A stretch of DNA of 64,000 nt from assembly GCA_964016885.1 (NCBI GenBank), contig OZ024751.1, forward strand, positions 19,220,001 through 19,284,000, given 5' to 3'. How positions within the stretch are numbered: position 1 is the stretch's first letter; every line of letters starts with the position of its first letter. Shown here in pieces: positions 12,588 through 50,023 of this stretch. The notes under the pieces were generated by a model. That model did not search any database, was not told where the DNA came from, and worked only from the letters and a program-made list of their open reading frames with translations. Origin of the DNA: Eledone cirrhosa (lineage: Eukaryota). Position numbers and translations under genes: made by a program.

Positions 12588-12901
12588 TGAGAGAGAGAGA
12601 GAGAGCGAGAAATGGAGGAATAGAGAGAAAGAGATGGATGAATAGAGAGAGAGCGAGAGAATGAGAAAGCGAGAGAGTGAGAGAGAGATGAAGGAGTAGA
12701 GGGGGGGGGGGAGAAATGTAGAAGAAGAATCGGTCAGAAGGTAGGACTGATATTTTATTTAACGACTTGAAAAACATATAAAGCAAAACTGACCTCGGTG
12801 GGATTTGAATTCAAAGAGACCAGACATCCACAGTGTATATTGCAAGAGACTCTGCCAATTCACCACACACACACGCACAATCTGTATACATATATATATA
12901 T

Positions 12902-13094
12902 ATAGGAAAAAGTATGACCCCGACGGCAGAGCTCGAGGCGTTTCGACGGCTATTTCTGAACTAATAGCCGTCGAAACGGCTCGAGCTCTGCCGTCGGGGT
13001 TATACTTTTTCCTATTTCCCACTCTACTGCCCTAAGTATTGAGTACTCTGGTGCGTTATGGTCCATCTGGTTCCTTACCACCTGGTTCCTTTGT

Positions 13095-13096
<2 letters not shown>
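12902..13096 (+). mobile_element. Family B fold-back element in (TA)n
   Basis: Palindrome 12902-13015 with an 8-nt loop, followed by the tail ...agtattgagtactctggtgcgttatggtcca.ctggttccttacca...; TA runs on both sides. Confidence 0.85.
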
Positions 13097-13352: not shown

Positions 13353-13425
<73 letters not shown>

Positions 13426-13428
<3 letters not shown>

Positions 13429-13458
13429 CGAAGGAAATGTGGTAAGGAACCAGGTGAA

Positions 13459-13462
<4 letters not shown>
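13426..13462 (-). mobile_element. Family B terminal fragment
   Basis: aacgaaggaaatgtggtaaggaaccaggtgaaccata between two (TA)n tracts. Confidence 0.75.
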
Positions 13463-13494
<32 letters not shown>

Positions 13495-19989: not shown

Positions 19990-20249
19990 ACAGCAGCCGT
20001 CACGCATAATCGAGCATGTAGCATGCTTTCGCTAAGGGTGTTAGGTGCCCATGCACCCGCGAGCATACACGGATATTATCTCAATTCTCCTTCCCTTAAT
20101 CCTACGGAACATCCAGGGTGTGGCAGAGGAAAGGAAAGGAAAGGAGACTTGTATTTTCTTTATCCACCCAGAAAGCTGGCTGCGACGAGATTTGAACTTA
20201 GAATGCAGAGACCTGGAATAAATATCCAACATTCTGACTCTACGAAATC

Positions 20250-20396
20250 AAAGAGTCAGGACACCGACGGCTGAGCTCCGACCGTTTCGACAGCTAGATC
20301 CAAACTCAGGGTCCTGACTTTTTCCTATTACCCATTCTACTACCCTAAGTTTCTGGTGCGTTATGGTCCACCTGGTTTATTACCATATTTTCTTTG

Positions 20397-20400
<4 letters not shown>
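20250..20400 (+). mobile_element. Family B copy with partially deleted palindrome
   Basis: Left arm gacaccgacggctgagctc..ccgtttcgacagcta is present; the right arm is reduced to gggtcctgactttt; family B tail follows, then (TA)n. Confidence 0.75.
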
Positions 20401-27577: not shown

Positions 27578-27614
27578 TCTCCCGAATGAAACAGTTCTAG
27601 CCCTGTAGAAGCCA

Positions 27615-27617: not shown

Positions 27618-27675
<58 letters not shown>

Positions 27676-27677
<2 letters not shown>

Positions 27678-27872
27678 CGGAGGAAATGTGGTAAGGAACC
27701 AGGTGGACCATAACGCACCAAAGTACTCAATACTTAGAGTAGTAGAGTGGGTAATAAGAACGAGTAGGACCCCGACGGCTGAGCTCAAGCCGTTTCGACG
27801 GCTAATTCTGGACTCCAGAATTAGCCGTCGAAACGGCTTGAGCTCAGCCGTCGGGGTCCTACTCGTTCCTAT
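27676..27872 (-). mobile_element. Family B fold-back element in (TA)n
   Basis: Perfect palindrome 27758-27868 centred on 27813, plus the unique tail 27676-27757. Confidence 0.9.
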
Positions 27873-29277: not shown

Positions 29278-29486
29278 GTAGGTCCCGGGTTGAGTCGGGG
29301 ATAACCACAGTAAGTAAGGTACTCAATACATGGCAGAGTAAAAATTTTTTATTCTTATTTTTTTTTAATTTTATAGAAGGAGCTTCTACAGGACTAGTAC
29401 TGTTTCATTCAGATGAAATCTTCAGGAGCTTCCTGAAGATTTCATCTGAATGAAACAGTACTAGTCCTGTAGAAGCTCCTTCTATA
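29278..29486 (-). mobile_element. Family A fold-back element in (TA)n
   Basis: Perfect palindrome 29372-29486 (56-bp arms, loop GCT) plus the terminus ggtcccgggttgagtcggggataaccacagtaagtaaggtactcaatacatggcagagta. Confidence 0.9.
29425..29479 (+). ncRNA. Type I hammerhead-like motif (family A)
   Basis: GGAGCTTC-CTGAAGA-TTTCATCTGAAT-GAAA-CAG-TACTAGTC-CTG-TA-GAAGCTCC. 8-bp stem I; T.T at the base of stem II. Confidence 0.75.
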
Positions 29487-29558
29487 TATATATATATATA
29501 TATATATACTCACCCAAATATTTATATATATATATACACTCACACAAAAATTTATATA

Positions 29559-48800: not shown

Positions 48801-48879
<79 letters not shown>

Positions 48880-48883
<4 letters not shown>

Positions 48884-48945
48884 AAGTATGACCCCGACGG
48901 CAGAGCTCAAACCTTTTCGACGGCTATTTCTGGACTAAATTAGAA
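48880..48945. mobile_element. Family B single arm abutting a family F element
   Basis: gaaaaagtatgaccccgacggcagagctc...tttcgacggctatttctggact matches 12906-12962. Confidence 0.8.
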
Positions 48946-48951
48946 TTTTTA

Positions 48952-49222
48952 GCCTGGTGTTGTTATTTCTCTGGGGAACTGGAATCATATATGATTCCAA
49001 TTCCTCAGAGAAATAACAACACATACCAGGAGCTGGACATATCGATGTATTGACGGAGTAAAACACACTTCAACAACATGTGTACCTGTCTTTTCCACAC
49101 CAATTCGGACTGCCTGAAGAGGTCACAGCCAATGATGGCTGTTACCGAAATATATATAGCAGTATATCTATAATTTATAATAAACGAAGCCAAATTTTAC
49201 ATATTTGACTTAATTATTTTAT
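48952..49222 (+). mobile_element. Family F element with a 5' inverted segment
   Basis: Palindrome 48957-49022, then an HHR, AATAAA and (TA)n. Confidence 0.85.
49109..49163 (+). ncRNA. Type I hammerhead ribozyme (family F)
   Basis: ACTGC-CTGAAGA-GGTCACAGCCA-ATGA-TGGCTGTTACC-GAAA-TATATATA-GCAGT. Canonical G-C pair at the base of stem II. Confidence 0.85.
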
Positions 49223-49910: not shown

Positions 49911-49951
<41 letters not shown>

Positions 49952-50012
49952 AAGGAAGTGTGGTAAGGAACTAGATGGACCATAACGCACCAGAGTACTC
50001 AATACTTAGGGT
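49820..50012 (-). mobile_element. Family A terminus (49820-49875) and family B terminus (49948-50012) separated by (TA)n
   Basis: cccgagttcaatcgggggtaaccacagtaaggtactcaatac; gaaggaagtgtggtaaggaactagatggaccataacgcaccagagtactcaatac. Confidence 0.8.
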
Positions 50013-50023
50013 AAACATTTTCG

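What the first reader, a model, noticed from the sequence alone, without database searches (positions are those of the whole stretch)
12902..13096. Family B: palindromes of two half-hammerheads folded at stem II
Three intact copies (12902, 27758, 54113) have on each strand only the 3' half of an HHR: GAAAC-GGC..GAGCTC.GC[C/T]-GTC-GGGG, i.e. stem III with a self-complementary GAGCTC loop and a GTC cleavage triplet. The symmetry axis lies in what would be the stem II loop and the CTGANGA half is absent. Inference: cDNA folded back on the stem II hairpin and self-primed second-strand synthesis. The axes differ slightly (TCTGAACT, C in GGACTCC, C in GACTCAGTC), implying independent events.
Basis: partly seen in the sequence, partly recalled or inferred. 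Interest (0 to 1): 0.72.

Follow-up and report, generated by a model that had tools for sequence, protein, structure and literature searches.

The report
Head-to-head Penelope retroelement stubs
These palindromes are two back-to-back copies of the last ~60 bases of a very abundant Penelope-like jumping gene lying in TA repeats, each arm keeping only the second half of that element's hammerhead-like RNA motif; the mirror copy was likely made during insertion, a layout already known for these elements.

Summary
In detail: three ~115-bp near-perfect palindromes, each arm reading GAAAC–hairpin(GAGCTC)–GTC–GGGG, with different centres and no CTGANGA. They are not a new device. The arms are the 3' end of a 3.3–5.5 kb Penelope-like element (PLE) with a 710-aa reverse transcriptase + GIY-YIG ORF. 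Full-length copies carry the missing half: ACCCC–YTGANAA–helix II, about 53 nt upstream of GAAAC. This is a hammerhead-like three-way junction with A at core position 8 (98 of 100 copies), the U3–A8 variant already described in PLEs. No Rfam hammerhead model matches.

The genome holds about 43,000 arm/tail junctions, about 90% in (TA)n. Two-armed copies always have the 78-nt "tail" on exactly one side (32 of 32). Both arms belong to the same subfamily (50 of 50). Most arms stop at the same depth (46–48 of 67), at 20 or more depths. So each palindrome is likely an independent insertion event copied from one RNA.

One extra result: arm ends pile up exactly at the predicted cleavage site (548 symmetric axes against 2 and 19 nearby). 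Known kind, new member.

The parts
12886..12904 (.). (TA)n flank left of copy 1
   Evidence: (TA-rich inverted pairs I2-I8)
12905..12954 (+). copy 1, tail-less arm (reverse complement of the PLE 3' end, outer end GGAAAAAG...)
   Evidence: matches arms of long PLE copies
12955..12962 (.). copy 1 centre (8 nt between the arms)
12963..13012 (+). copy 1, tail-side arm in sense: GAAAC 12973-12977, helix III hairpin 12978-12992, GTC 12993-12995, predicted cleavage between 12995 and 12996, helix I 3' strand GGGG...TTCC
   Evidence: motif assignment from the long parent
13013..13096 (+). copy 1 'tail' (one-sided extension, ends ...TTTGTTA at the (TA)n)
   Evidence: 42,686 arm/tail junctions in the genome
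13097..13125 (.). (TA)n flank right of copy 1
27675..27756 (-). copy 2 tail (element lies on the - strand)
27757..27869 (-). copy 2 palindrome (arms meet at 27813, 1 nt between)
   Evidence: 40 of 40 scored genome matches are full length at 96-100% identity
54112..54228 (+). copy 3 palindrome (arms meet at 54170, 1 nt between)
54229..54310 (+). copy 3 tail
20243..20399 (+). older copy: long tail-less arm joined directly to a tail-side arm that begins at AGGGTCC (20308), i.e. at the predicted cleavage site; tail follows, then (TA)n
   Evidence: same junction class as L195, L201
48874..48938 (+). tail-less arm running on into the long-form pLTR sequence (partial longer insertion)
49945..50013 (-). 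5'-truncated copy consisting of tail only, (TA)n on both sides
13424..13463 (-). 5'-truncated copy: last ~38 nt of the tail between two (TA)n runs
2589..2626 (+). old diverged single arm (GAAAC-GGCCGGAGCTCAGCC-GTC), (TA)n-rich flank

Best explanation
Family B is the 3' end of a Penelope-like retrotransposon (PLE) present twice, head to head, inside (TA)n microsatellites. The two arms were likely reverse-transcribed from one RNA molecule, primed from the two cut strands of the target at two neighbouring start sites, both running to the same 5' end of that RNA.

Shown directly:
- The arms are the terminal ~60 nt of 3.3-5.5 kb elements that carry a 710-aa ORF with RT (YRDDGL) and C-terminal GIY-YIG motifs.
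- In the sense strand the order is ORF, about 1.2 kb of UTR/pLTR, ACCCC-YTGANAA-helix II-GAAAC-helix III-GTC-GGGG...TTCC, then a 78-nt tail, then (TA)n.
- The palindromes keep only the part from inside helix II outward, so each arm is half of a hammerhead-like motif and cannot cleave.

Inferred:
- Each palindrome is one insertion event.
- The arm with the tail started at the outer RT start site and the arm without it at the inner one.
- A minority of templates would begin exactly at G1.1 because the parental motif (or something else acting at that bond) cuts after GUC.

My odds: identity as PLE stubs 0.9; one RNA copied twice 0.5; ribozyme cleavage as the cause of the G1.1 pile-up 0.5.
For: Identity:
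- Long copies have the same arms as the ends of inverted repeats of 514 bp (98.1%), 537 bp, 830 bp and 1,866 bp (98.6%).
- L112 holds an open 710-aa frame. Its relatives reach E = 6e-176, and look-alike clusters carry RVT_1 and GIY-YIG.
- Published PLE traits all match. Craig 2021 (PMC8557442, passages): strong 5' truncation, an inverted 5'-truncated copy, a tail at one end, hammerhead in the pLTR, (TA)n preference. Cervera 2014 (PMC4209133, parts 1-2 read): U3-A8 core variant, G10.1-C11.1, palindromic loop 3, dual motifs on opposite strands.

Parent motif:
- The box is YTGANAA in 5,342 matches.
- The unconstrained MFE of the 112-nt parent is the hammerhead three-way junction in L174 (ddG 0.0). 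It is within 0.8 and 2.0 kcal/mol in L160 and L135.

Target:
- (TA)>=3 lies next to 60 of 67 tail-less arms and 80 of 86 tails, and around 30 of 30 best copies.
- (TA)>=6 covers 10.3% of the window.

Coupling of the arms:
- Exactly one tail in 32 of 32 two-armed copies of an arm-anchored sample.
- Same AATT/ATTT subfamily on both arms in 50 of 50 listed sites.
- Centre loop <=4 nt in 46-48 of 67 two-armed copies, at depths 17-69.
- With noisier parent-based depths, 27 of 65 have |dL-dR|<=3 against a shuffle mean of 15.4; 2 of 10,000 shuffles reach 27. At unusual depths, 7 of 24 against 1.5 expected.

Cleavage-site pile-up:
- Symmetric axes GACCCC-N0-3-GGGGTC number 548 sites (control 53). That compares with 2 sites three bases deeper and 19 sites six to seven bases deeper.
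- Of 53 distinct (TA)n-abutting short arms, 21 begin exactly at G1.1 (26-28 counting stubs and fillers). At most 4 begin at any other position from depth 15 to 26.
- 13 of 30 D-GGGG loci and 9 of 30 GVC-GGGG loci are true junctions at G1.1.
Against: - No Rfam hammerhead model matches the arms or the long parent, even at E<=10.
- Local Pfam gives no family for the ORF at E<=10 and PDB gives none. RT and GIY-YIG rest on motifs read by eye plus the relatives' families.
- 19-21 of 67 two-armed copies are asymmetric. Full-length copies have very unequal arms. So a shared 5' end is not a rule.
- Core position 8 is A. 24 of 100 parents also have C at position 3, which cannot pair with A8.
- Arms with the outer variant seen on those C3 parents are not visibly depleted among G1.1-ended copies (by eye). 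That weakens the ribozyme reading of the pile-up; a transcription start or another nuclease at that bond is not excluded.
- The MFE of one parent copy with a mutated helix I (L069) is not the hammerhead fold, and z is only -0.9. The C3 copy L131 and the diverged L147 need 5.3 and 6.3 kcal/mol.
- No RNA data could be laid.
- 40 near-identical copies share one centre, so some short units may also be copied as units.
Confidence: 0.6

Rival explanations
1. One reading: one cDNA is made by target-primed reverse transcription. Its 3' end then turns back on itself (snap-back or copy-back) and primes the second arm, so the palindrome is built from a single first strand.
For: It explains automatically why both arms share subfamily (50 of 50) and depth (46-48 of 67), and why centres differ between copies. 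Copy-back by polymerases is an established phenomenon (recalled, not from a call).
Against: A self-primed hairpin should leave an unpaired templated loop of about 3 nt or more, but 43 of 48 symmetric centres have 0-2 nt by the centre-finder. The extra central bases continue the tail-side arm, the other arm, or neither (by eye). It does not explain why the second arm always ends exactly at the arm/tail boundary (one tail in 32 of 32), nor the 19-21 of 67 asymmetric copies. In vitro, a PLE protein cuts and extends both strands and starts at two internal sites (PMC11167929).
Confidence: 0.25
2. The short palindrome-plus-tail unit is itself a non-autonomous element. It would be transcribed as a hairpin RNA and copied whole by the PLE machinery, with centre variants arising rarely and then amplifying.
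For: All 40 scored genome matches to copy 2 are full length, 96-100% identical and share its centre. Some odd centres recur, e.g. L094/L106 and L157/L173/L178.
Against: The same centre types recur in different subfamilies (AATT and ATTT, different outer 8-nt variants). Every main short subfamily has a matching long ORF-bearing subfamily. There are 20 or more depths among 48 symmetric copies. Solo arms share the same preferred 5' ends (L078, L098).
Confidence: 0.1
3. A DNA-level origin: a MITE or foldback element moved by a DNA transposase into TA sites, or post-insertion hairpin-driven symmetric deletions creating the different centres.
For: There is a perfect palindrome, TA-rich flanks and high copy number. 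Palindrome centres are known to be unstable (recalled). Some copies show direct-repeat deletions, e.g. L065 and L070.
Against: The ends are not symmetric, with one 78-nt tail (32 of 32). The long partners encode RT + GIY-YIG, not a transposase. Tail-only 5'-truncated copies retain the exact 3' end (window 13424-13463 and 49945-50013). Some flanks repeat 10-14 bp of imperfect microsatellite rather than a fixed TA (L006; L119, L159). Arms longer than the common form cannot come from it by deletion (L059, L070, L100).
Confidence: 0.05

Closest known systems
Insertions of endonuclease-bearing Penelope-like elements: pLTR, inverted 5'-truncated copy, one-sided tail (Craig et al. 2021, PMC8557442; Frangieh et al. 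2024, PMC11167929)
   Same: An RT + GIY-YIG ORF in long copies; heavy 5' truncation; an inverted copy abutting the main copy; a tail at one end only; a hammerhead-type motif in the terminal repeat; AT-rich/(TA)n targets; tens of thousands of copies.
   Different: The tail is about 78 nt here against the 30-40 bp described. Here both copies are usually cut down to about 17-70 nt, and mostly to the same depth. The (TA)n bias was described for N-terminal-EN Naiads, whereas this ORF has the EN at the C terminus. The clade was not determined.
PLE minimal hammerheads, including the U3-A8 core variant of Schistosoma Cercyon elements (Cervera and de la Pena 2014, PMC4209133)
   Same: Location in the PLE terminal repeat; a short helix I (5 bp); a long helix II with unpaired bases at its 5' end; G10.1-C11.1; a palindromic loop 3 (UGAGCUCA); U3-A8 in place of C3-G8; dual motifs on opposite strands; most copies truncated.
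   Different: Helix III here is a stable 6-bp hairpin, not the 0-2 bp of min-HHRs. Helix II carries an insert of about 37 nt. 24 of 100 parents have C3 with A8. No Rfam model matches. Activity is untested. The Family B arms hold only the 3' half.
L1 twin priming (inverted/truncated LINE-1 insertions; recalled, no call)
   Same: Both strands of the target prime cDNA synthesis, giving an inverted segment joined to a 3' segment in one insertion.
   Different: Twin priming inverts a different, more 5' part of the RNA. Here the two arms are duplicates of the same 3' end, starting at two fixed sites.
MITEs / foldback DNA transposons with a TA target
   Same: A short, abundant, palindromic element in TA-rich DNA.
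   Different: A one-sided tail, RT-encoding parents, 3'-anchored truncation series, and variable centres.

Membership tests
EN+ Penelope-like element insertion | Full-length relatives encode a reverse transcriptase fused to a GIY-YIG endonuclease | tested here: met
   L112 has a 710-aa open frame with YRDDGL and VIYQCNV...AYIGLT...R..H motifs (read by eye). 403 relatives at E<=1e-5. Look-alike clusters carry PF00078 and PF01541. Caveat: local Pfam has no hit at E<=10.
EN+ Penelope-like element insertion | Terminal repeats (pLTR), direct or inverted, from an adjacent 5'-truncated copy | tested here: met
   Inverted repeats of 514-1,866 bp at 98-99% identity in 4 of 5 long loci (L111, L112, L114, L115); L113 showed only a short terminal match, not a clean self inverted repeat.
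EN+ Penelope-like element insertion | Tail extension at one end only | tested here: met
   32 of 32 two-armed copies have exactly one tail. Long copies L111 and L112 have the tail only at the sense 3' end.
EN+ Penelope-like element insertion | High degree of 5' truncation with a fixed 3' end | tested here: met
   Of 90 tail-anchored copies, 67 are short two-armed, about 10 are long, and the rest are solo truncated arms. Tail-only copies lie in the window.
EN+ Penelope-like element insertion | AT-rich / microsatellite target | tested here: met
   60 of 67 and 80 of 86 flanks have (TA)>=3 within 12 nt.
Hammerhead ribozyme (the parental motif in the long pLTR) | Three helices around the core C3 U4 G5 A6 N7 G8 A9 / G12 A13 A14 / A15.1-U16.1 / H17 | tested here: inconclusive
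   10 of 12 constrained positions are met. Positions 3 and 8 are U and A in 75 and 98 of 100 copies, a covariation reported for PLE hammerheads. The MFE equals the three-way junction in 1 of 5 copies and is within 2 kcal/mol in 3 of 5.
Hammerhead ribozyme (the parental motif in the long pLTR) | Match to a curated hammerhead covariance model | tested here: not met
   No hammerhead family among 39 matches at E<=10 on L069, L081 and L061, nor in the window.
Hammerhead ribozyme (the parental motif in the long pLTR) | Self-cleavage after H17 | not testable with these tools
   There is only an indirect footprint: arm ends pile up at G1.1.
Hammerhead ribozyme (the Family B arms themselves) | Presence of the C3-A9 box and the 5' strands of helices I and II | tested here: not met
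   Absent from all three window copies. Only 61 of 65,353 arms have any CTGANGA 6-40 nt upstream, and those are heterogeneous.
MITE / foldback DNA transposon | Symmetric terminal inverted repeats, a transposase-encoding parent, a fixed short target duplication | tested here: not met
   One-sided tail. Parents encode RT/EN. Duplicated imperfect-microsatellite stretches of about 10-14 bp occur at some copies.
Non-LTR retrozyme | Tandem head-to-tail repeats each with a complete hammerhead | tested here: not met
   The copies are dispersed, inverted and hold half a motif.

The most novel reading that the evidence does not exclude
The tens of thousands of stubs are a fossil record of the Penelope insertion reaction. 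The sharp pile-up of arm ends exactly at G1.1 after GUC records in vivo self-cleavage by a hammerhead that has A, not G, at core position 8. The three rules (exactly one tail, same-template arms, same depth) show that a dimeric PLE particle copies one RNA twice, from two start sites, off the two strands of a cut (TA)n.
Probability: 0.35. Interest if true: 0.65.

Novelty: new member of a known kind. Interest (0 to 1): 0.4.

Why it matters
How Penelope-like elements insert is still poorly understood. The papers read here say that the tandem/inverted structures and the tail come from "still undefined features" of the cycle (PMC8557442). [quoted passage not shown]

This genome offers about 43,000 natural insertion products of one family. 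The one-tail rule, the same-template arms, the shared depth and the end pile-up at the predicted scissile bond are simple, countable constraints. An in vitro system could test them directly. For genome annotation, these stubs explain a large class of perfect hairpins in (TA)n that would otherwise be called MITEs or miRNA-like hairpins; Rfam's weak hits here are all miRNA precursors.

Tried and rejected
- Rfam at gathering score on the whole window gave 0 matches. At E<=10 on 53800-54400 and on three long parents it gave only generic miRNA-type hairpins and AT-repeat hits, no hammerhead.
These are loop mutants and chance junctions, not a family. The real parent was missed because its box is YTGANAA and lies about 53 nt upstream.
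- Pfam (local copy) on the ORF found nothing at E<=0.01 or E<=10. PDB by sequence found nothing at E<=1.
- Helitron reading: the ends do not fit the 5'-TC / CTRR-3' convention. That convention is recalled; the ends were read.
- RNA evidence: no RNA holder was listed. Only four contig-kept runs of one study hold the stretch, so nothing was laid.
- The MFE fold of the parent in L069, a copy with a mutated helix I, is not a hammerhead fold and has z = -0.9.
- Parent-based depth estimates are noisy, because the palindrome lets an alignment run a few bases into the other arm. I therefore report the direct centre measure beside them.
- Earlier-notes look-ups by place and by sequence returned nothing.
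- Literature: two full-text searches listed no paper reporting arm ends at the hammerhead cleavage site of PLE copies. I read listings only for most hits, so this is not proof of absence. Supplements of the papers were not opened.

Full report
**1. What is at the coordinates**

The three copies are real.
- One search gives inverted arms of 53, 59 and 61 nt at 96-98% complementarity, with 8, 1 and 1 nt between them.
- Read towards its outer end, each arm is CGAAAC, a GGC...GCC hairpin whose loop holds GAGCTC, then GTC, then GGGG. None contains CTGANGA.
A conserved non-palindromic tail of about 78-84 nt sits on one side only (13013-13096, 27675-27756, 54229-54310). (TA)n lies on both sides.
- BLAST inside the window finds five more partial copies.

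**2. How common it is**

- The window is C11:19220001-19284000 of a 2,995,841,428-base assembly.
- Copy 2 has 1,427 first-look candidates. All 40 scored are full length at 96-100% identity. All 30 that I printed sit between (TA)n runs.
- The arm pattern occurs 32,836 + 32,517 times, against 0 for the control.
- The arm/tail junction occurs 21,311 + 21,375 times.
- (TA)>=6 runs make up 6,612 of the window's 64,000 bases.
- Even so, 60 of 67 tail-less arm ends and 80 of 86 tail ends have (TA)>=3 within 12 nt.

**3. What the arms belong to**

I fetched an unbiased sample of 60 places taken in genome order from the arm hits.
- Many arms run on inward into a longer shared sequence.
- Pairs of opposite arms lie 2.5-5.5 kb apart.
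- Five such elements were fetched. Four of them (L111, L114, L115, L112) have inverted repeats of 514, 537, 830 and 1,866 bp at 98-99% identity; L113 did not show a clean self inverted repeat.
- L112 carries an open 710-aa frame. It has a YRDDGL reverse-transcriptase motif. Towards the C terminus it has a cysteine cluster followed by VIYQCNV...AYIGLT, a GIY-YIG signature (read by eye).
- Its relatives reach E = 6e-176. Look-alike clusters carry RVT_1, GIY-YIG and HTH_animal.
- The local Pfam copy and PDB give nothing.
- RT followed by GIY-YIG defines endonuclease-bearing Penelope-like elements (PMC8557442, passages).
- In the sense of the ORF, the arm plus tail is the extreme 3' end of the element. 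The inverted upstream copy has no tail.

**4. The missing half of the hammerhead**

- In long copies the sense strand reads GGAATTACCCC, a 7-nt box, GCTCGGCTA, about 37 nt, TAGCCGTC, GAAAC, the helix III hairpin, GTC, GGGG...TTCC, then the tail.
- The box plus its flanks occurs 2,671 + 2,671 times.
- Among the first 100 listed, position 3 is U in 75, C in 24 and G in 1. Position 8 is A in 98 and G in 2.
- So the canonical CUGANGA is essentially absent. U3-A8 replaces the C3-G8 pair in most copies.
- That covariation was reported for PLE hammerheads in Schistosoma. So were the long helix II with unpaired bases at its 5' end, G10.1-C11.1, and a palindromic loop 3 (PMC4209133, parts 1-2).
- For the 112-nt parent, the unconstrained minimum-energy fold is exactly the three-way junction in L174. 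There the 7-nt box, GAA and C17 are single-stranded.
- The hammerhead fold lies 0.8 and 2.0 kcal/mol above the MFE in L160 and L135. It lies 5.3 and 6.3 kcal/mol above it in L131 (C3) and L147.
- Against membership: no Rfam hammerhead model matches at E<=10. A copy with a damaged helix I folds otherwise.
- I therefore call it a hammerhead-like motif of the PLE U3-A8 type, with activity untested.
- The Family B arms begin inside helix II, so they are half-motifs and cannot cleave.

**5. The palindromes are insertion products, not a transposing hairpin**

The published picture of PLE insertions fits point by point: heavy 5' truncation, an inverted 5'-truncated copy next to the main copy, and a tail at one end. 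In vitro, an anole PLE protein cuts and extends both target strands. It also starts reverse transcription at two adjacent internal sites, and the spacing between those sites is the tail.

My counts add three couplings between the arms.
- (a) In the arm-anchored sample, 32 of 32 two-armed copies have the tail on exactly one side, 17 right and 15 left. Independent choice of start site cannot give this.
- (b) In 50 of 50 listed sites, both arms carry the same AATT or ATTT subfamily state. The variable outer 8 nt also match within copies.
- (c) In a tail-anchored sample of 90, 67 copies are short and two-armed. Of these, 46-48 have a centre loop of <=4 nt, at depths from 17 to 69. The centre-finder tallies 19, 18, 6, 3 and 2 copies with loops of 0, 1, 2, 3 and 4 nt. 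Two of these calls are off-centre and doubtful.

With parent-based depths, which are noisier:
- 27 of 65 have |dL-dR|<=3, against a shuffle mean of 15.4. Only 2 of 10,000 shuffles reach 27.
- At unusual depths, 7 of 24 are symmetric against 1.5 expected.

The same centre types recur in both subfamilies, so they arise repeatedly. Nineteen to 21 of 67 are asymmetric, and full-length copies are very asymmetric. A common end is therefore frequent, not obligatory.

**6. Mechanism**

The simplest reading has four steps.
- One RNA is used.
- The two 3'-OH ends of the cut (TA)n prime at the inner and the outer start site.
- Both cDNAs run to the RNA's 5' end.
- They are joined head to head with 0-2 extra bases.

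This is inferred; I give it about 0.5. It does not explain the fixed outer end of the second arm, and it fits 0-2-nt centres poorly; I give it about 0.25. Amplification of whole short units may contribute.

A DNA transposon is excluded for three reasons:
- the one-sided tail;
- the RT-encoding parents;
- the 3'-anchored truncation series, including tail-only copies in the window.

Some copies repeat 10-14 bp of imperfect microsatellite on both sides (L006; L119 and L159). That fits staggered nicks.

**7. A pile-up of ends at the predicted cleavage site**

- Symmetric axes exactly at GUC|G (GACCCC-N0-3-GGGGTC) number 548 sites against 53 for the control.
- At least 17 of the first ~35 listed coincide with tail-bearing copies found independently.
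- Axes three bases deeper number 2 sites. Axes six to seven bases deeper number 19.
- I collated 53 distinct short arms that abut a TA run from the first 100 rows. Of these, 21 begin exactly at G1.1, or 26-28 counting arm stubs and fillers. That compares with 2-3, 3, 3, 4, 1, 3, 1 and 4 at depths 15, 16, 18, 20, 21, 23, 24 and 26.
- Of 30 loci with a non-C before GGGG, 13 are true junctions, 11 are point changes and 6 carry an extra G.
- Of 30 loci with GVC before GGGG, 9 are 'GAC|GGGG' junctions and 18 are point changes.
- The window's own older copy at 20243-20399 is of this class.

This is what run-off on an RNA cut after C17 would leave. It would be indirect in vivo evidence, which the two PLE papers say is lacking. 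Three cautions apply.
- A8 (and C3 with A8 in a quarter of parents) should weaken catalysis.
- G1.1-ended arms with the outer variant of the C3 parents are not visibly rarer (by eye).
- A transcription start or another nuclease at that bond is not excluded.

I put the ribozyme reading at about 0.5.

**8. Verdict**

- The thing is a new, very large family of a known kind.
- Earlier notes of this scan reached the same filing for other palindromes of this genome. I saw them only after my own calls and do not count them as evidence.

Noticed in passing
window 53882-54060 (also 27578-27612, 63098-63211, 29372-29489): 'Family A': another near-perfect palindrome. Its arms read CTGATGA...GAATGAAAC...GTA with a canonical C3/G8 box on both strands. 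It lies just upstream of the (TA)n that holds Family B copies 2 and 3. There is no Rfam hammerhead hit at E<=10. It is probably a head-to-head stub of a second PLE family that keeps its whole motif.
   Followed up: partly
whole window: (TA)>=6 runs cover 6,612 of 64,000 bases in 240 runs. Several unrelated repeat families end at or straddle these runs, so (TA)n is a shared landing site in this genome.
   Followed up: partly
L005, L009, L067 flanks: Another palindromic repeat (...TTTATTATTATTAC-(TA)n-GTAATAATAATAAA...) has a (TA)n at its own centre. Family B copies have landed in that centre.
   Followed up: no
L052, L053, L058, L070, L090, L091 flanks: A repeat beginning with (CAT)n followed by ...CGTTTAACGTCC...CACGC.AGCATGGGTT... 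abuts the (TA)n next to Family B in 6 of 60 sampled places. In L052 it lies on both sides in inverted orientation.
   Followed up: no
window 48874-49030: A tail-less arm continues into the long pLTR form. It then mirrors itself around CATATATG at a depth of about 120 nt, and the outer part of the second arm is replaced by other sequence. This is an older, deeper head-to-head insertion.
   Followed up: partly
G000 C2:338328916, 338373142, 338417109, 338461877: Four identical junction-type copies are spaced about 44 kb apart. This suggests a ~44-kb tandem segmental duplication containing one copy.
   Followed up: no
L133 (C1:3670332): A palindrome whose tail-less arm directly abuts the end of another copy's tail (...CTTCGTTA|GGAAAAAG). 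This is a head-to-tail tandem of two units without (TA)n between them.
   Followed up: no
tail, e.g. window 13056-13079: The tail contains a degenerate third copy of the arm's outer ~24 nt (CGTTATGGTCCA.CTGGTTCCTTA against CGTCGGGGTC......TTCCTAT). Both RT start regions may share a recognition motif.
   Followed up: no
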